IMG/VR virus record: IMGVR_UViG_3300020045_008999
Span: 1-64,000 of that record
From: a virus
Taxonomy: Duplodnaviria > Heunggongvirae > Uroviricota > Caudoviricetes
Direction: 5' to 3' (one strand)
DNA length: 64,000 nt
The notes beneath the pieces are model-generated. The model was not told the DNA's origin, searched no databases, and saw only the letters and a program-made list of their open reading frames with translations. Below are positions 10,282-62,392 of this stretch, piece after piece. The translations under genes were made by a program, and so were the position numbers. Position 1 is the first letter of the stretch. The number at the start of each line of letters is the position of its first letter.

Positions 10282-10755
10282 ATGACTTTAGATGATATTT
10301 ATAAATTCATGGAAAAGGAATGTGATAATTTCAAATACCGGATCGATTACGATATAAGACAAGGATATGTTGTGAATTCCAGCGAGAATTACACCTGGAC
10401 ATATCCGCTTTATTTGAATCACAAAGACATATCCATGTTTCCATTTAAATTTGGAACAATACACACGTCTTTTATCGCATCTAGCACCTCACTAGCTTCA
10501 TTAATAAATTCACCAGATTACGTCCGGGACCATCTATTATTGGATGGCAATTTATTACAATCACTAAAAGGAATTAGCAAACATGTGGGGGTCAGACTGT
10601 CAATCAAACACAACCCATTATTAATCAATTGTGAAAATTTTACAATTTTGAATAACTTCATTAGAGAAAATCCATTTTGTACAATTTTGATGGATGACGA
10701 TTTTGCAAAAGCGTTTACTAGATTTAACACCATTGCGGATATTATTAGTTTGTAA
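10282..10755 (+). CDS. LRR-like repeat family protein, subfamily B (C-terminal DDDFxKAF(T/N)R motif)
   Basis: C-terminal ILMDDDFAKAFTRFNTIADII matches other B members. N-xL(K/T)SL-G repeat units. Confidence 0.55.
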   Translation: MTLDDIYKFMEKECDNFKYRIDYDIRQGYVVNSSENYTWTYPLYLNHKDISMFPFKFGTIHTSFIASSTSLASLINSPDYVRDHLLLDGNLLQSLKGISKHVGVRLSIKHNPLLINCENFTILNNFIRENPFCTILMDDDFAKAFTRFNTIADIISL

Positions 10756-11197
10756 TAATATCTGTGATTGTTACATATCGATTATACGCATTCAAGAATC
10801 CTTGATCTGCAAATATATTACCACCTACGTAGGTGAACATTAAAATTTTAAAATTTTCTTCATTTATAAGCAGCTGATTATACTCAATATGTAAATTACC
10901 ACCAATGAATTTTGGCATTCCCTCGATAGACGTTAACATATTATAATCCGCCCAAAAATTACCACATACACTATTGGGTGAATTAATTAAATTAGTTAGC
11001 ATGTTTTTACGCACAGATGCATTTTCATGTACCGTATTAATGTTAAAATTTGGCAAAGACGTCAAATTTCTATTATATGGAATTTGTAAATTTTGGTATA
11101 TATCAATGCTCATATCGGGATTAATTGAATATTCAACTACATTGTGATTCTTACACATTTTCTCAATCATCTCGATTGTATTATTAGAGTCCGTCAT
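10745..11197 (-). CDS. LRR-like repeat family protein, subfamily B
   Basis: N-terminal IEKMCKNHNVVEYSINPDMSIDI and C-terminal GFLNAYNRYVTITDII motifs. Tail-to-tail with 10282-10755. Confidence 0.55.
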   Translation of the reverse strand: MTDSNNTIEMIEKMCKNHNVVEYSINPDMSIDIYQNLQIPYNRNLTSLPNFNINTVHENASVRKNMLTNLINSPNSVCGNFWADYNMLTSIEGMPKFIGGNLHIEYNQLLINEENFKILMFTYVGGNIFADQGFLNAYNRYVTITDIITN

Positions 11198-11275
11198 ACT
11201 ACATTTAATTTGATATGTATATAATAATTCTAAGTTAAAGTTTTAATATATAGTTCAAATATATATCTATACACA

Positions 11276-11941
11276 ATGTCAAAAATATTCAAATTTGAAG
11301 ATTTTTTATTAAATGAATCATATTTAAAAGGGGGAAGACCTCCGTTATATCACAGTACCCACTATTTCACTAATATATTAAAAAGTGATTTACTCAGAGT
11401 TAATAAACCAGTATTTGATGTACATAGTAGGAAATCAATATCATTCACACGTGATCGCTATTATGGGGATGGTGGTCCAAAAAAATTCATGGTGGACGTG
11501 GACCACTTAATAAAAGATGGATATAAACCAGAACCAGTAGATGAAATTGGTTCAGCACTTAATAAAATGTCTAAAATAAAAGAACCAAAACCTTTTTTCA
11601 AAGGATATTCTAAAGTAAATCCAAGCAATAAAAAAATTATACACAATATACCTGGCCTACAAACTGGAATAGATACATCACTAAGTCAAGAAAGTGAAGA
11701 GCGCGTATACAAAGACATTCCTAATTTTGGAAGATATGTAATCGAAATAATATTACCGGATAATTCAGTCGAACGATACAAACCAGAGCTTAGTGATTAC
11801 TTAACACAATACCCACATATTGTTGTAAAAAACAACAAAGGGGTAACGCTAATGACTTATGAAGATGTTGAAAAAAGTAATTCAGTTACCAAGTATATCA
11901 CTGCAGATAACATGCTTTCTGAATCTATTAAAGTCAAATAG
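11276..11941 (+). CDS. Hypothetical protein
   Basis: 221-aa ORF. Confidence 0.45.
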   Translation: MSKIFKFEDFLLNESYLKGGRPPLYHSTHYFTNILKSDLLRVNKPVFDVHSRKSISFTRDRYYGDGGPKKFMVDVDHLIKDGYKPEPVDEIGSALNKMSKIKEPKPFFKGYSKVNPSNKKIIHNIPGLQTGIDTSLSQESEERVYKDIPNFGRYVIEIILPDNSVERYKPELSDYLTQYPHIVVKNNKGVTLMTYEDVEKSNSVTKYITADNMLSESIKVK

Positions 11942-12392
11942 TCCAACTGAAATAGCCGCTTCTGATAAGGCGTGGATATCTACGATATCATTGATAAAAT
12001 CTTCAACTATTGGTTGAAGATTTTCTTGCTTATCAACACTAATTAACATAATGTTTTTTGATAAATAATTTAAATAGTCAGTAGTTTCCATCGCTTTATT
12101 TTTCACAAATATAGTTCAAATAAGTGAGGAATACAAATATATATTCGACATTATTCGAGAAGTTGTAAAATTGCAATCGTCCGGGAAAATGATCTTTTAA
12201 TATTATCACAGCTTATTATTGGAGGCTTGGTTATTTTTGATCGAAATATTTATATTGTTTTTTATATAAACACTGCCATGTATATCTACGGACAGGTCAT
12301 GATTTATGGTATATCTACCAGCTGTAAAAAACATCTAACCGTACATATTCTGCACACATTAATTTTATATTCTCCACGGTTGTCATACTCTG

Positions 12393-60132: not shown

Positions 60133-60876
60133 CTATTGTAGTCCATCTTCGATTTCATCCAACAACTCTAGTAAAGCATCTTCGTTTAGTGATAGATCAT
60201 CATTCCAAATTAAAAAATGTCGTTGGTACTTTAGTATTAGTTTAATATGTTTTAAATTATATTTTATCAACGATGGTAAAGCATAACAATTATTAAAATT
60301 TGCACTACCCACCACCTCAACATCTACCTCGCCAGAAAATGTACTTTTCAATAAACTTTTATAACTTTGTGAAAAGCAGTCCAAATTACGACCAATGTAT
60401 TCAGGTGCACCATTTAACGTCTCTATCGGATTGTTACGACAATCAAATGTCCACTTAACCCGGTGAGGTCCACCAATTAATGTTTTTAGTTTATTATTGT
60501 TACAAAAAAAAGAGTCATTGATTATTTTGGTAGATCCTTTTAAGGTAATTAATTTATTCTCACAACAATTAAAAACTTTACCAACCGTTAAGGGGGAATA
60601 TTCTAATGATGTCAACATATTATTAGCGCATATGAAATTACCACCAACATGTTTAGGTGATCCTTCCAAAGATGTTAAGTTATTCTGATTGCAATAAAAG
60701 CTACCAGATACATTATTGAATTTTAGTGGCAACTTCGTCAATTTTAGATCATCTAAGAATACATCACTATCACTATTAACGGATCCATCTGAGTTAATCG
60801 AATAGTACATGATGCTATACTGTTTACACAATAATTCAATTTGTTCCATCTGTACTTTTGTGATTAAATTTGTCAT
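60133..60876 (-). CDS. LRR-like repeat family protein, subfamily A (start at the second Met, MTNLITK)
   Basis: C-terminal LILKYQRHFLIWNDDLSLNEDALLELLDEIEDGLQ. Head-to-head with 60921-61664. Confidence 0.6.
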   Translation of the reverse strand: MTNLITKVQMEQIELLCKQYSIMYYSINSDGSVNSDSDVFLDDLKLTKLPLKFNNVSGSFYCNQNNLTSLEGSPKHVGGNFICANNMLTSLEYSPLTVGKVFNCCENKLITLKGSTKIINDSFFCNNNKLKTLIGGPHRVKWTFDCRNNPIETLNGAPEYIGRNLDCFSQSYKSLLKSTFSGEVDVEVVGSANFNNCYALPSLIKYNLKHIKLILKYQRHFLIWNDDLSLNEDALLELLDEIEDGLQ

Positions 60877-60920
60877 ATGATATATATTAAATATGTTCTG
60901 TGTAAATTTATATATAGTAT

Positions 60921-61664
60921 ATGACAAATTTAATAACACAAGAACAAAAAAACAAAATTGATGATTTATGTACTGAGTTCCAAATTTACAACTATACTAT
61001 AAATTCGGATGGTTCCATCGACGTTGATGGTAGTGTGTCAATTTTCAATAGAGGACTTACTAAATTACCAATTGTGTTTAATAATGTGACTCGTAGTTTT
61101 ACATGCAGCCATAATGATCTCACTACACTTGAAGGTGCCCCAAGAAAAGTAGGGGAAGACTTCAATTGTAATCATAACAAATTAACAACTATGGAACATT
61201 CACCATTATGGGTTGGTGGTGGTATCTGGTGCAATGAAAATAGATTAACAAGCCTAGAGCATTCACCAAAACACGTAGGTGGTGTATTTCATTGTGGTGA
61301 AAACCAGATTACTTCGTTAGTAGGACTACCCAACAGAATTGGTAGAACATTATTATGTTACGATAATCGCATTACAACACTGGTAGGGGCACCTGAATAT
61401 ATTGGGGGCGACCTAGGTGTTTATATAAATAAATTACACAATACATATTCAGGTGATATTGATATAGAAGTCGGTGGGAAAATTACAATAAATACAAGCA
61501 TTTATGACATTGTAAAATTGCCAAAAATGTTACGTGAAAATTTACAACATATTAAACTAATACTAAAGTATCAACGACATTTTTTAATTTGGAATGATGA
61601 TATGTCTTTAAACGAAGAAAACTTCCAGATACTAATTGAAGAAATTAAAGACGGGCTGGAATAG
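60921..61664 (+). CDS. LRR-like repeat family protein, subfamily A
   Basis: N-terminal MTNLITQEQKNKIDDLCTEFQIYNYTINSDGSIDVDGSV and C-terminal LILKYQRHFLIWNDDMSLNEENFQILIEEIKDGLE. Confidence 0.6.
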   Translation: MTNLITQEQKNKIDDLCTEFQIYNYTINSDGSIDVDGSVSIFNRGLTKLPIVFNNVTRSFTCSHNDLTTLEGAPRKVGEDFNCNHNKLTTMEHSPLWVGGGIWCNENRLTSLEHSPKHVGGVFHCGENQITSLVGLPNRIGRTLLCYDNRITTLVGAPEYIGGDLGVYINKLHNTYSGDIDIEVGGKITINTSIYDIVKLPKMLRENLQHIKLILKYQRHFLIWNDDMSLNEENFQILIEEIKDGLE

Positions 61665-61786
61665 ATAATACTTAATCTGAAACAATCGGTGGAAGTACTA
61701 AACTAGTCTGATACAGAATGGTGTAAATACAATTAACAAAAACCACATCTATTAAACTAATAGATGGGTTATTTAATATATACTAA

Positions 61787-62392
61787 ATGAAAAACCTGGT
61801 AACACAATTTCAAAAAAACCACATAGATCAGATATGTGCGGAATACTTAATATATAATTATACTATAAATTCTGATGGTTCTATTGATGTCATTGGACAT
61901 GTTGATCTTAGTAATAGTTCTTTAAATAAGATACCTATTAAATTCAATAAAGTAAGTGGGGATTTCAATTGCATGCGCAATAATCTAAAGAGTTTAGTAA
62001 ATGCCCCTATTCAGGTTGGTGGCAGTTTCAGTTGTCGCGAAAATAAAATCAAATCATTAATGGGTTCCCCTAGAACTGTTGGTGGTAACTTCATATGTTC
62101 TGATAATAAAATAACCGATTTGAATGGGGCCCCTGGAGAAATAGGCGGACAGTTTATAGCGTTCCACACTAATTTGAAAAGCACTTATTCCGGTGAAACT
62201 GATATTGTTTCTAATGGTGATATTTATATAAATGGGAATTTGGCATTAGAAAAAAAGATAACAGAAAACTTAAAACATATTAAATTGATTCTAAAGTATC
62301 AACGGCATTTTTTTATATGGAATGATGATCACACACTCAATGTTGATAATTTCAATGATTTATTAGCAGATATAAATGATGGGTTAGAATAA
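61787..62392 (+). CDS. LRR-like repeat family protein, subfamily A
   Basis: N-terminal MKNLVTQFQKNHIDQICAEYLIYNYTINSDGSIDVIGHV and C-terminal LILKYQRHFFIWNDDHTLNVDNFNDLLADINDGLE. Confidence 0.6.
   Translation: MKNLVTQFQKNHIDQICAEYLIYNYTINSDGSIDVIGHVDLSNSSLNKIPIKFNKVSGDFNCMRNNLKSLVNAPIQVGGSFSCRENKIKSLMGSPRTVGGNFICSDNKITDLNGAPGEIGGQFIAFHTNLKSTYSGETDIVSNGDIYINGNLALEKKITENLKHIKLILKYQRHFFIWNDDHTLNVDNFNDLLADINDGLE

What the first reader, a model, noticed from the sequence alone, without database searches (positions are those of the whole stretch)
10282..62392. Fifteen-member paralogous family of LRR-like repeat proteins with conserved termini and variable repeat number
Fifteen ORFs, about 9 kb or 14% of the window, share a conserved N-terminal module (K-IDxIC--Y-I-NY-IN-DGSIDV-G-V) and a core of 21-23-residue units (P--VGG-F-C--N-LTSL-GAP) whose Cys/Asn/Leu spacing mimics leucine-rich repeats. 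They fall into two C-terminal types: subfamily A ends ...LILKYQR(Y/H)F-IWNDD-SLN--NF-DL--EI-DGLE (9 members), and subfamily B ends ...DDDF-KAF-R---I--IL (6 members). Repeat number varies, giving proteins of 128 to 268 aa. Members are scattered in pairs (tail-to-tail at 10.3/10.7 kb and 44.5/44.9 kb, tandem at 29.8/30.3 kb, head-to-head at 60.9 kb) and often sit at boundaries between transcription blocks. The architecture is that of a fast-evolving specificity family: fixed termini with a variable recognition array. Candidate roles are host-range adaptors, receptor-binding accessory proteins, or decoys for or inhibitors of host defence. I do not recognise it as any named phage protein family.
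Basis: seen in the sequence. Interest (0 to 1): 0.85.

Follow-up and report, generated by a model that had tools for sequence, protein, structure and literature searches.

The report
Expanded leucine-rich-repeat family in huge phage
A roughly 600-kb bacteriophage, probably of Flavobacterium-like bacteria, carries dozens of diverged copies of a small, unannotated leucine-rich-repeat binding protein; its few bacterial relatives sit in anti-phage defence islands, so it is probably a binding-protein repertoire for phage-host conflict, with function unproven.

Summary

The parent contig is 596,785 bp and holds at least 64 paralogs (the 15 in the window and 49 more). It is a huge Caudoviricetes phage with tRNAs, a tyrosyl-tRNA synthetase (TyrRS) and no Shine-Dalgarno use. 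The family recurs in many large phages.

"Fast-evolving" is not supported. Paralogs are old (at most 70% identical), and orthologs in a related phage are 69-89% identical with dN/dS 0.15-0.23, although gene content does turn over.

Two new leads emerged:
- A-type genes share a phage-specific promoter-like motif, TTWATATATA-N4-ATG.
- Full-length homologues in six Flavobacterium genomes lie beside recombinases, five of them within 8 kb of BREX, type I R-M, GmrSD, CBASS or AbiE genes.

The best reading is a repertoire of stand-alone cytoplasmic binders used in phage-host conflict. The function remains inferred.

The parts
10282..10755 (+). LRR family member, subfamily B, 157 aa. Degenerate repeats; most ladder Cys lost.
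   Evidence: BLASTP cluster; family HMM E=1e-31; alignment.
10745..11197 (-). LRR family member, subfamily B, 150 aa. Convergent with 10282-10755, with an 11-nt overlap.
   Evidence: HMM E=7e-38.
12209..12334 (-). Decayed remnant of a 16th copy. Only the N-module is recognisable (RYTINHDLSVDIHGSVYI).
   Evidence: Family HMM E=4.5e-5 on a stop-to-stop frame; translation.
12797..13408 (-). LRR family member, divergent subfamily B with an insertion, 203 aa.
   Evidence: HMM E=9e-57.
29816..30307 (-). LRR family member, subfamily B, 163 aa. This is the B member that was modelled.
   Evidence: AlphaFold2 pLDDT 93.1, pTM 0.84. N-helix, short-strand solenoid, then a beta/alpha C-cap.
30300..30737 (-). 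LRR family member, subfamily B, 145 aa. In tandem with 29816-30307, with an 8-nt overlap.
   Evidence: HMM E=3e-35.
33719..34417 (-). LRR family member, subfamily A, 232 aa (= P0067). Lies within an operon and has no upstream motif.
44519..44905 (+). LRR family member, subfamily B, 128 aa. The shortest member; TTG start.
   Evidence: HMM E=3e-32.
44928..45548 (-). LRR family member, subfamily A, 206 aa (= P0056).
   Evidence: The upstream motif lies at 45553-45560.
47531..48139 (-). LRR family member, subfamily A, 202 aa.
   Evidence: The upstream motif lies at 48144-48151.
55722..56336 (-). LRR family member, subfamily A, 204 aa.
   Evidence: Its ortholog in related phage L050 is 69% identical, with dN/dS 0.18. 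The upstream motif lies at 56341-56348.
56684..57358 (-). LRR family member, subfamily A, 224 aa (= P0050). Absent from the syntenic stretch of related phage L050.
   Evidence: The upstream motif lies at 57363-57370.
59078..59875 (+). LRR family member, subfamily A, 265 aa. The longest member; absent from related phage L050.
60133..60876 (-). LRR family member, subfamily A (= P0023). The likely true start is the ATG at 60876, giving 247 aa. The 268-aa GTG ORF that runs to 60939 is probably an over-extension.
   Evidence: Alignment to paralogs. The motif at 60881-60888 sits 4 nt before this ATG. The ortholog in L050 is split by a frameshift.
60921..61664 (+). LRR family member, subfamily A, 247 aa (= P0011). 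This is the A member that was modelled.
61787..62392 (+). LRR family member, subfamily A, 201 aa (= P0058).
   Evidence: The ortholog is 89% identical, with dN 0.066 and dS 0.39. The upstream motif lies at 61775-61782.
45553..45560 (-). Promoter-like motif [AT]ATATATA (full form TTWATATATA), 4 nt before the ATG of 44928-45548.
48144..48151 (-). The same motif, 4 nt before the ATG of 47531-48139.
56341..56348 (-). The same motif, 4 nt before the ATG of 55722-56336.
   Evidence: The motif is conserved before the ortholog in L050.
57363..57370 (-). The same motif, 4 nt before the ATG of 56684-57358.
60881..60916 (.). Back-to-back pair of the motif in the 44-nt divergent intergenic region: 60881-60888 on the minus strand for 60133-60876, and 60909-60916 on the plus strand for 60921-61664.
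   Evidence: Both copies are conserved in L050.
61775..61782 (+). The same motif, 4 nt before the ATG of 61787-62392.
   Evidence: The motif is conserved in L050.

Best explanation
These genes are a lineage-expanded family of small (about 130-285 aa), soluble, stand-alone leucine-rich-repeat (LRR) proteins. They belong to a roughly 600-kb tailed phage that probably infects Flavobacterium-like Bacteroidota.

Shown:
- Each protein is one capped LRR solenoid: an N-terminal helix plus first turns (the conserved N-module), then several 21-residue InlJ-type cysteine-ladder repeats (up to 6 strictly phased units counted per protein), then one of two C-terminal caps.
- The scaffold positions (P1, V4, G5, G6, F8, C10, N13, L15, L18, G20) are nearly fixed.
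- The positions that face outward from the beta-strand and its flanks (7, 9, 11, 12, 14) are close to random between paralogs, but about 58% conserved between orthologs.
- Each paralog is under purifying selection.
- A-type genes are solitary units behind a conserved phage-specific motif, TTWATATATA-N4-ATG. B-type genes sit inside operons.

Inferred:
- Each paralog is a binder with its own fixed specificity. Together they form a germline repertoire of protein-binding modules made in the infected cell.
- They most likely capture, block or re-target host proteins, or proteins of competing elements. Host defence components are the most likely targets.
- The reason for that last inference is that the only cellular full-length homologues found, in six Flavobacterium genomes, lie beside site-specific recombinases, and five of them lie within 8 kb of BREX, type I R-M, GmrSD, CBASS or AbiE genes.
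- The upstream motif also precedes the structural-gene block. The proteins may therefore be made late, possibly for packaging and delivery into the next cell.
For: Family and fold:
- One 15-member cluster, with E-values down to 2e-80.
- AlphaFold2 pLDDT 95/pTM 0.89 for the A type and 93/0.84 for the B type.
- The family profile against PDB sequences gives Internalin-J at 3e-16, SspH1 at 1e-6 and IpaH9.8 at 1e-5.
- The period is 21 aa and Cys is present in 145 of 163 units. Entropy is 3.4-3.65 bits at positions 9, 11, 12 and 14 (2.9 at position 7), against less than 1.3 bits at most scaffold positions.

Not secreted and no enzymatic part:
- No hydrophobic segment (maximum Kyte-Doolittle score over 19 residues is 1.6) and no extra domain.
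- The C-module occurs in only 171 representative clusters out of 1.84 billion proteins. With one probable chance exception (P0244), it always lies at the C-terminus of full-length proteins of about 160-310 aa or of shorter fragments.

Expansion:
- At least 55 hits on the 596,785-bp parent contig within the top 120, of which 6 are window members.

Selection:
- dN/dS is 0.15-0.23. Orthologs are 69-89% identical and keep their length.
- The closest paralogs are at most 70% identical.

Independent units:
- The motif sits at an exact 4-nt gap before 7 of 9 A genes, against 2 of 91 other genes.
- It is kept before all 4 orthologs in L050 and recurs before family genes in at least 14 unrelated IMG/VR loci.
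- There is no conserved neighbour across phages.

Phage identity and host:
- A Syn5 gp53-like structural protein, 6 tRNAs and a TyrRS.
- Shine-Dalgarno-like sequence before only 4 of 106 genes. GC is 31%.

Host homologues:
- Flavobacterium homologues are 35-44% identical over the full length.
- Neighbours are BrxL, PglZ, AbiE, CBASS and a resolvase; an integrase with type I R-M; HsdR and two GmrSD; BrxA and BrxB.
Against: - No binding partner, expression time or localisation has been measured. Everything beyond 'capped LRR binder under purifying selection' is inference.
- An anti-defence gene sitting in the host's own defence island is not the simplest expectation. The association equally fits a defence or regulatory role for the bacterial copy.
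- The six bacterial loci are not independent. L053 and L056 share one flank, and L056 and L057 share the other. L055 shows only an integrase.
- Substitutions between orthologs are not concentrated on the concave face (42% against 36%, n=25 repeats), and dN/dS is low. There is therefore no arms-race signature.
- If the upstream motif is a late promoter, classic early host-takeover is unlikely.
- Neither PADLOC nor the literature search found any anti-defence LRR precedent in phages.
Confidence: 0.45

Rival explanations
1. The proteins are virion-associated adhesins or receptor-binding accessories. In this reading the LRR proteins are made late and decorate the tail, fibres or capsid, possibly docking through the shared N-module. 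Each paralog would recognise a different host surface structure, which would broaden host range.
For: - The closest sequence relative is the adhesin Internalin-J.
- The A-type upstream motif also precedes the structural block, at 35108 (gap 6) and 37477 (gap 24).
- In related phage L051, three family genes lie directly downstream of, and co-oriented with, the structural genes.
- LRR or beta-helix domains are proposed host-recognition elements in phage Goslar (bioRxiv 10.64898/2026.04.21.720040).
- The N-module is shared by 97 of 109 family ORFs across phages, while the C-modules differ. This resembles receptor-binding proteins that carry a conserved anchor.
Against: - In the models the N-module is the LRR cap, not a separate docking domain.
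- There is no trimerisation, coiled-coil or beta-helix element, and no signal peptide.
- The genes are scattered among non-structural genes. In other phages they lie next to helicase, clamp loader, terminase and homing endonuclease genes.
- The single chromosomal copies in Flavobacterium lie in defence islands, not in prophage tail modules.
- At least 64 different adhesins would be unprecedented.
Confidence: 0.17
2. The proteins are defence or superinfection-exclusion sensors. In this reading the family is primarily a bacterial defence-island gene: an LRR pattern-recognition module that senses phage proteins. Huge phages would have captured and multiplied it to exclude competing phages, or to act as decoys that titrate the host sensor's partner.
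For: - Five of the six Flavobacterium homologues lie within 8 kb of BREX, type I R-M, GmrSD, CBASS or AbiE genes. Guilt-by-association is the standard lead for new defence genes.
- LRRs are the sensor domains of eukaryotic innate immunity (established knowledge).
- Each paralog's surface is conserved, which fits fixed recognition specificities.
Against: - No effector domain or conserved partner gene lies next to the LRR gene, in bacteria or in phages.
- There is no PADLOC model.
- In the data at hand the family is overwhelmingly viral. Hits are mostly on viral or metagenomic contigs, and only six of 185,579 GTDB species genomes matched; that scan used only the A-type C-module pattern.
- The bacterial gene is transcribed convergently to the neighbouring defence operons, not as part of them.
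Confidence: 0.15
3. The copies are functionless or selfish duplicates that accumulate in a genome under relaxed size constraint.
For: - Gene content turns over between related phages. Two genes are absent and one is frameshifted.
- One decayed remnant lies in the window.
- Tandem arrays occur in other phages.
Against: - dN/dS is 0.15-0.23 and orthologs keep their length.
- The oldest paralogs remain intact with high-confidence folds.
- The upstream motif is conserved across diverged genes and genomes.
- There are no recent duplicates; the maximum paralog identity is 70%.
Confidence: 0.03

Closest known systems
Internalin-J (InlJ) of Listeria monocytogenes, the cysteine-ladder LRR (PDB 3bz5)
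   Different: InlJ is a large secreted, wall-anchored adhesin with a signal peptide, internalin cap, Ig-like inter-repeat region and LPXTG anchor. The phage proteins are 130-285 aa, have no signal peptide or anchor, and carry their own N- and C-caps. Their role is probably cytoplasmic.
LRR substrate-recognition domains of IpaH, SspH1, SlrP and YopM type III effectors
   Different: IpaH, SspH and SlrP carry a C-terminal NEL E3-ligase domain and a secretion signal, which the phage proteins lack. Their repeat is 20 aa without a Cys ladder (recalled). Their targets are eukaryotic.
Repeat-protein multigene families of giant eukaryotic viruses and poxviruses (CroV and Dictyostelium FNIP/FGxxFN LRRs, PMC9525666; ankyrin/F-box host-range families, from general knowledge)
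   Same: Tens of diverged paralogs of one small repeat scaffold are scattered through a very large viral genome, and their function is mostly unknown or related to host range. BFVD structural hits include many giant-virus LRR proteins.
   Different: The host domain differs (bacteria), the LRR subtype differs, there is no F-box or other adaptor domain, and such an expansion has not, to my knowledge, been described for a phage.
Variable lymphocyte receptors (VLRs) of jawless vertebrates
   Same: The architecture matches: an N-cap, a variable number of LRR modules with hypervariable concave residues, and a C-cap. VLRs appear among the structural hits.
   Different: VLR diversity is made somatically by gene conversion from cassettes. 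Here the diversity is germline, old and stable. No cassette or inverted-repeat machinery was found.
Uncharacterised 'Leucine-rich repeat' proteins of uncultured Caudovirales, Lak megaphages and the 634-735-kb huge phages
   Same: The same 21-aa Cys-ladder repeat is detectable by tblastn in LR756501 (735 kb, 18 places), LR756502, LR745206, Prevotella Lak phages (1-5 places per record) and Vibrio phages of about 195 kb. BFVD hits are annotated only as 'Leucine-rich repeat'.
   Different: Copy numbers there are much lower. The records are unannotated or labelled hypothetical. The Vibrio phage copy lacks the N-module.

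Membership tests
Leucine-rich repeat (LRR) superfamily | Tandem 20-30-residue units containing LxxLxLxxNxL (Cys or Phe allowed at the Leu positions). 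| tested here: met
   The 21-aa consensus is PxxVGGxFxCxxNxLTSLxGx. N13 is present in 157 of 163 units, L15 or I15 in 162, L18 in 155 and C10 in 145.
Leucine-rich repeat (LRR) superfamily | Curved solenoid fold with one short beta-strand per repeat. | tested here: met
Leucine-rich repeat (LRR) superfamily | Significant sequence similarity to established LRR proteins or models. | tested here: met
   The profile gives InlJ at 3e-16, SspH1 at 1.4e-6 and IpaH9.8 at 1.4e-5. However, no Pfam LRR model reaches E<=1 for the window members. Only a few relatives carry a precomputed PF12799 annotation.
Internalins (class 1, InlJ) | Signal peptide, internalin N-cap, Ig-like inter-repeat domain and LPXTG or GW anchor. 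| tested here: not met
   The proteins end about 50 aa after the last repeat. There is no hydrophobic N-terminus. NCBIfam internalin_J scores 22-52 bits against a cut-off of 1700.
Internalins (class 1, InlJ) | 21-residue repeat with a conserved Cys ladder. | tested here: met
   Period 21 and Cys10 in 89% of units. The best PDB sequence hit is 3bz5.
IpaH/SspH/SlrP NEL effectors | C-terminal NEL E3 ubiquitin-ligase domain. | tested here: not met
   There is no domain beyond the LRR and its cap. NCBIfam SspH2 scores 28 bits against a cut-off of 1243, over the LRR only. Pfam finds nothing.
Known or candidate anti-phage defence proteins (PADLOC-DB 2.0) | Match to a PADLOC model. | tested here: not met
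   No families at E<=0.01 for 10 proteins, including the Flavobacterium copies.
Defence-island gene (guilt by association) | Chromosomal homologues enriched next to known defence systems. | tested here: inconclusive
   Five of six Flavobacterium loci have BREX, R-M, GmrSD, CBASS or AbiE genes within 8 kb, and all six have a recombinase. There are only six loci, they are partly syntenic, and no genome-wide background test was run.
Phage receptor-binding or tail-fibre proteins | Virion association and an N-terminal anchor to the baseplate or fibre. | not testable with these tools
   No proteomics is available. The models show that the N-module is an LRR cap. There is no PHROG structural annotation.
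Shufflon or cassette-based variable LRR system (VLR-like) | Recombinase plus inverted repeats or silent cassettes flanking the expressed gene. | tested here: not met
   Recombinases lie next to the Flavobacterium copies, and L054 holds one promoterless fragment. No convincing inverted or direct recombination repeats were found.

The most novel reading that the evidence does not exclude
Huge Bacteroidota phages maintain a germline 'receptor repertoire' of dozens of LRR binders. Each is tuned to a different host defence or host-range protein, and they may be packaged and delivered with the DNA. The single homologue in Flavobacterium BREX and R-M islands would then be a previously unrecognised component, regulator or counter-measure of the same conflict. 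This would be the first LRR-based recognition repertoire described in phage-bacterium immunity, mirroring IpaH effector sets and LRR immune receptors of eukaryotes.
Probability: 0.25. Interest if true: 0.85.

Novelty: new member of a known kind. Interest (0 to 1): 0.6.

Why it matters
Phage genomes are normally streamlined and almost free of large paralogous families. Here one scaffold accounts for 14% of a 64-kb window. At least 64 genes, roughly 7% of a 597-kb genome by my arithmetic, belong to it.

The same 21-residue cysteine-ladder LRR recurs in other very large phages, including Lak megaphages and the 634-735-kb phages. The family may therefore explain part of what these genomes spend their extra DNA on.

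The fold is a classic programmable binding scaffold, and each paralog keeps its own surface under purifying selection. The only cellular full-length homologues found lie beside recombinases, and five of the six lie close to BREX, restriction and CBASS systems.

This turns an anonymous family into a testable hypothesis about phage-host conflict, with concrete candidate partners such as BrxL, PglZ, HsdR and GmrSD. The shared TTWATATATA-N4-ATG element is also a candidate promoter class for this group of phages. Cultured Flavobacterium jumbophages exist (PMC13573597) and could serve as an experimental entry point if they carry the family.

Tried and rejected
- Retrieving the parent contig failed. 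Exact look-ups of P0011 and P0003 found nothing, and the metagenome-contig scan matched 163 stretches but confirmed none. The genome-wide copy map could therefore not be made, and the count of at least 64 copies rests on the top-120 hit table.
- Megablast of 10 kb of the window against the phage collection found no match.
- The single-protein IMG/VR scan found nothing, and the 15-member alignment was too divergent to use for pattern extraction. The A-type alignment worked.
- The afdb50 library was not available.
- Fusion partners gave no lead. N- or C-terminal extensions in relatives (L039, L041, L002, L008, P0001) have no Pfam domain.
- Conserved neighbours in other phages gave no lead. None recurs. 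Neighbours are a mix of homing and HNH endonucleases, terminase, portal, clamp loader and late sigma factor.
- The shufflon or phase-variation idea for the recombinase-adjacent Flavobacterium copies is rejected, because there are no convincing inverted repeats.
- Sigma-70-type promoters are not enriched: 138 found against 130 expected.
- A DNA-mimic idea has little support. The family is acidic (median pI 4.8 against 6.0 for other window proteins), but not extremely so.
- A eukaryotic giant-virus origin was considered because of the tRNAs, TyrRS, AT-richness, absence of Shine-Dalgarno sequences and repeat family. It is rejected because of homology to tailed-phage structural proteins, relatives in phage contigs that carry portal, terminase and holin genes, and the Flavobacterium homologues.
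- Recent internal repeat duplication is rejected. Identity at variable positions is 0.21 within proteins and 0.17 between proteins.
- Literature searches for LRR families in huge, jumbo or mega phages found no description of this family.

Full report

Yes. I extracted all 186 ORFs of at least 60 aa from the six frames and ran an all-vs-all BLASTP. 101 of the 105 pairs are significant at E<1e-3, and the best pair reaches 2e-80. A profile built from the 15 finds no further intact member. It does find one decayed N-module remnant at 12209-12334 on the minus strand.

The 15 genes sum to 9,030 bp, which is 14.1% of the window. The alignment reproduces the N-terminal module and the two C-terminal types:
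- nine 'A' members end in ...LILKYQR(H/Y/F)(F/Y)xIWNDDxSLNxxNFxxLxxEIxDGLE;
- six shorter and more divergent 'B' members end in ...DDxFxKAFxRxxxIxxIL.

The stated pair geometries are correct.

Small corrections:
- The repeat period is 21 residues. 163 P..V-to-P..V spacings equal 21, and the next most common spacing is 38, seen 13 times.
- Protein lengths in the genome are quantised in steps of 21, at about 200, 221, 242, 263 and 284 aa.
- The 268-aa GTG ORF at 60133-60939 almost certainly starts at the ATG at 60876, giving 247 aa.
- The tendency to sit at strand switches is weak: 11 of 15 against 42 of 91, p=0.046.

**2. What genome is this?**

The window has 31% GC and about 91% coding density. 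Shine-Dalgarno-like sequence precedes only 4 of 106 genes. There are six tRNA genes and a tyrosyl-tRNA synthetase at 2486-3724.

The protein search shows that the window comes from a 596,785-bp JGI contig. P0011 is 100% identical to the product of 60921-61664.

The 547-aa protein at 37477-39120 is homologous to proteins annotated as structural in Synechococcus phages Syn5 and S-TIP28 and in one Caudoviricetes record, and to a hypothetical protein of a Maribacter phage. Relatives of the LRR family lie on viral contigs that carry portal, terminase, clamp-loader, late-sigma and holin genes.

This is therefore a huge tailed phage, not a eukaryotic giant virus. The lack of Shine-Dalgarno sequences, the low GC and the Flavobacterium homologues described in section 6 point to a Bacteroidota host, probably Flavobacterium-like. 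That host assignment is an inference.

**3. What are the proteins?**

They are genuine leucine-rich repeats.
- AlphaFold2 models are confident: pLDDT 95.0 and pTM 0.89 for the A member 60921-61664, and pLDDT 93.1 and pTM 0.84 for the B member 29816-30307.
- Both models show an N-terminal helix, a regular series of very short strands (one or two per 21 residues), and a helical (A) or beta/alpha (B) C-terminal element.
- All 50 listed Foldseek PDB hits are LRR proteins. The LRR domains of IpaH7.8, SspH1 and IpaH9.8 rank highest, with TM about 0.5 over the whole length.
- The BFVD search returns 'Leucine-rich repeat' proteins of uncultured Caudovirales and of giant viruses.
- At the sequence level, the family profile matches Internalin-J (3bz5, whose entry title describes a cysteine ladder) at E=3e-16, SspH1 at 1e-6 and IpaH9.8 at 1e-5.
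- Pfam itself gives nothing at E<=1. PHROGs gives only weak hits to two families of unknown function. PADLOC gives nothing.

The unit consensus, from 163 units taken from 64 paralogs, is P1-x-x-V4-G5-G6-x-F8-x-C10-x-x-N13-x-L15-T16-S17-L18-x-G20-x. Entropy is below 1.3 bits at most scaffold positions and 3.4-3.65 bits at positions 9, 11, 12 and 14, with 2.9 bits at position 7. In LRR terms these variable positions are the outward-facing residues of and around the beta-strand, which form the classical ligand-binding face.

In the models the 'conserved termini' are the caps that close the two ends of the solenoid. Profile scanning of 1.84 billion representative proteins finds the A-type C-module in only 171 clusters. 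It always lies at the extreme C-terminus of full-length proteins of about 160-310 aa or of shorter fragments. One 6,179-aa protein with a short repeated look-alike motif is probably a chance hit.

There is no signal peptide or membrane segment. The family is moderately acidic, with a median pI of 4.8.

**4. How big and how old is the family?**

In the top 120 database hits, 55 proteins come from the same 596,785-bp contig, and only six of them are window members. Adding the nine window members that are not in that list gives at least 64 paralogs in one phage genome.

No two of these paralogs are more than 70% identical, and the median closest paralog is 59% identical. Repeats within a protein are no more similar at variable positions than repeats from different proteins (0.21 against 0.17). 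The expansion is therefore old, and there is no ongoing unit duplication.

Two contigs from run SRR31615993 belong to a related phage and are syntenic with window stretches 49.9-62.4 kb (L050) and 35-40 kb (L051).
- Orthologous LRR genes have the same length and are 69-89% identical. Neighbouring genes range from 30 to 87%.
- dN/dS is 0.15-0.23.
- Between orthologs, concave variable positions differ at 42%, convex variable positions at 36% and scaffold positions at 14%. Paralog-specific surfaces are therefore largely kept, and change is not focused on the binding face.
- Gene content does turn over. Window genes 59078-59875 and 56684-57358 have no counterpart in L050. The ortholog of 60133-60876 is split by a frameshift. 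L051 has three family genes where the window has other genes.
- The 60.1-62.4 kb LRR cluster shows much lower synonymous divergence (dS 0.37-0.75) than adjacent non-LRR genes (about 1.9-2.4 or saturated). This suggests recent exchange of that block between lineages.

The label 'fast-evolving specificity family' is thus not supported at the sequence level. 'Old, diversified, individually conserved repertoire with presence/absence turnover' fits better.

**5. Distribution**

The family profile finds 751 proteins at E<=1e-3, and the B profile finds 379. Nearly all come from metagenomes and are unnamed.

An IMG/VR scan returned 47 loci on viral contigs of 4.6-476 kb. Several are multi-copy, and two loci hold nine copies each, which the upstream sequences show to be tandem arrays. 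The N-module is present in 97 of the 109 family ORFs found across all fetched loci (most of them IMG/VR). The A-type C-module is present in only 8, and other lineages use other C-caps.

By tblastn, the same Cys-ladder repeat occurs in:
- the 735-kb phage LR756501 (7-18 places, depending on the query);
- LR756502 and LR745206;
- Prevotella Lak megaphages (1-5 places per record);
- Vibrio phages of about 195 kb, where the gene is a 'hypothetical protein' next to a DnaB-like helicase.

No neighbour recurs across phages, and extensions in longer relatives have no recognisable domain. These are stand-alone genes.

**6. Two new leads**

(a) A shared upstream element. Seven of the nine A-type genes are preceded by TT[AT]ATATATA, exactly 4 nt before the ATG. 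Only 2 of 91 other genes share that configuration.
- The element is retained before all four orthologs in L050 although the surrounding DNA has diverged.
- It recurs at a gap of 4-7 nt before family genes in at least 14 unrelated IMG/VR loci.
- It is absent from the bacterial copies.
- It also precedes 35108 (gap 6, the first gene of the structural block) and 37477 (gap 24).
- It resembles the T4 late promoter TATAAATA (established knowledge), and its position would give nearly leaderless mRNAs. Both points are inferences.
- Sigma-70-type sites are not enriched.
- B-type genes lack the element and overlap their neighbours, so they are probably co-transcribed with them.

(b) Bacterial homologues in defence islands. 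A scan of one genome per GTDB species, using the A-type C-module pattern, found six full-length homologues. All are in Flavobacterium, at 35-44% identity over residues 2-247 including the LILKYQR...DGL cap. Each is a solitary gene, with these neighbours:

| Locus | Neighbouring genes |
|---|---|
| L056 (L053 shares its downstream flank by gene sizes) | BrxL and PglZ (BREX), AbiEi/AbiEii; in L056 also a CBASS pair (SMODS + NUDIX) and a small serine recombinase |
| L054 | large serine recombinase, BrxA, BrxB and a BrxC-like protein |
| L057 | HsdR, two GmrSD and YgjP, plus the same CBASS pair inferred by synteny |
| L058 | tyrosine integrase within a type I R-M locus (HsdR, HsdS, HsdM) |
| L055 | tyrosine integrase only |

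The LRR gene is transcribed convergently to the defence operons rather than within them. The loci are partly syntenic with each other, so there are about three or four independent contexts. I looked for recombination repeats that would indicate a shufflon and found none.

**7. Most likely mechanism**

Shown: these are small, soluble, capped LRR solenoids. Each has its own conserved surface. They are under purifying selection, massively multiplied in one huge phage, and recurrent in others. The A type is expressed from a phage-specific element.

Inferred: they act as a repertoire of protein-binding modules inside the infected cell. By analogy with LRR domains of IpaH, SspH and YopM effectors, which bind host immune proteins, and given the defence-island location of the only cellular homologues found, the targets are most likely components of host defence or other host-range determinants. 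If the upstream element is a late promoter, they may be packaged and injected. This would resemble T4 IPI*, which is packaged and counters GmrSD, or P1 DarA/B, which counter type I R-M (established knowledge). That parallel is speculation.

I put about 0.45 on 'cytoplasmic binder repertoire in phage-host conflict'. The rivals are:
- virion adhesins or receptor-binding accessories, about 0.17;
- defence or superinfection-exclusion sensors or decoys, about 0.15;
- functionless duplicates, about 0.03.

The remainder is unassigned.

**8. Novelty and verdict**

The fold and the general principle, an LRR-only binding protein, are well known, and LRR proteins are already annotated in uncultured phages. 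I therefore file this as a new member of a known kind.

What is unusual:
- the scale of the expansion for a phage, at least 64 copies and roughly 7% of the genome;
- its recurrence in the largest known phages;
- the absence of any annotation or literature;
- the defence-island link.

I score interest at 0.6.

Noticed in passing
window 45553-45560(-), 48144-48151(-), 56341-56348(-), 57363-57370(-), 60881-60888(-), 60909-60916(+), 61775-61782(+); also upstream of 8277, 17654, 21335, 35108, 37477 and 47138: A promoter-like element, TT[AT]ATATATA, lies at a fixed 4-nt distance from the ATG. It is conserved in a related phage and recurs before family genes in at least 14 unrelated IMG/VR contigs. 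It may be a T4-late-like promoter that gives near-leaderless mRNAs in phages that do not use Shine-Dalgarno sequences.
   Followed up: partly
window 60133-62392 compared with L050 1-2401: The LRR cluster has much lower synonymous divergence from the related phage (dS 0.37-0.75) than the adjacent non-LRR genes (about 1.9-2.4 or saturated). This suggests a recent recombinational exchange of this block, that is, a mosaic genome.
   Followed up: partly
L050 871-1613 (-): The ortholog of window gene 60133-60876 is split into 160-aa and 87-aa ORFs by a frameshift in the related phage. This is either a pseudogene or an assembly error.
   Followed up: no
window 12209-12334 (-): A 42-codon open stretch encodes RYTINHDLSVDIHGSVYI, a decayed remnant of the family N-module (HMM E=4.5e-5).
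   Followed up: partly
window 56029-56265(+), 57087-57287(+), 60497-60688(+): Three short ORFs are similar to one another. They lie antisense to LRR genes and simply mirror the repeat family on the opposite strand. They are most likely not genes.
   Followed up: partly
window 2486-3724(+), 20977-21222(-), 63661-63970(-): The window encodes a tyrosyl-tRNA synthetase and six tRNA genes: Tyr and Met in one place, and a Lys-His-Phe-Trp cluster in another. The phage thus carries both tRNA-Tyr and TyrRS.
   Followed up: no
whole window: Shine-Dalgarno-like sequence precedes only 4 of 106 predicted genes, against a 7% background. The upstream regions are A/T-rich, which is consistent with a Bacteroidota-type translation initiation regime.
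   Followed up: partly
window 35108-40873(+), 41730-44150(+), 15290-16801(+), 50525-51769(+): The block 35108-40873 is structural-like: its 547-aa protein is homologous to Syn5 gp53-type 'structural protein', and the block is conserved in L051. The other three genes encode an 806-aa GHKL-type ATPase, a 503-aa SPFH/Band-7 protein, and a glycosyltransferase-methyltransferase fusion.
   Followed up: partly
L013 (IMGVR_UViG_3300034064_001081) and L014 (IMGVR_UViG_3300020048_000015): Other phage contigs carry tandem arrays of nine family genes within about 10 kb, with stop/start overlaps and a third C-terminal type (...KYYRIV). The family has therefore expanded independently in several lineages.
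   Followed up: partly
L053 about 7900-7960 and L055 about 7910-7960: A conserved palindrome-like sequence (TTGACAATGACAA / TTGTCATTGACAA) lies upstream of the Flavobacterium LRR genes. It may be an operator.
   Followed up: no
L054 10008-10238 (+): A 76-aa LRR fragment with a B-like C-terminus and no N-module lies 1.3 kb downstream of the full-length Flavobacterium gene, beside a serine recombinase. No recombination repeats were found.
   Followed up: partly
P0244 (6,179-aa metagenomic protein): This protein has nineteen repeats of a YQxHFRIYNDDxxLN-like motif that resembles the core of the A-type C-module. The resemblance is probably chance.
   Followed up: no
tools: The metagenome-contig scan matched 163 pattern stretches but confirmed none. 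Exact-sequence look-ups of two proteins from the parent contig also found no record, although the protein database lists the contig as a JGI source. The parent contig could not be read beyond the window.
   Followed up: yes
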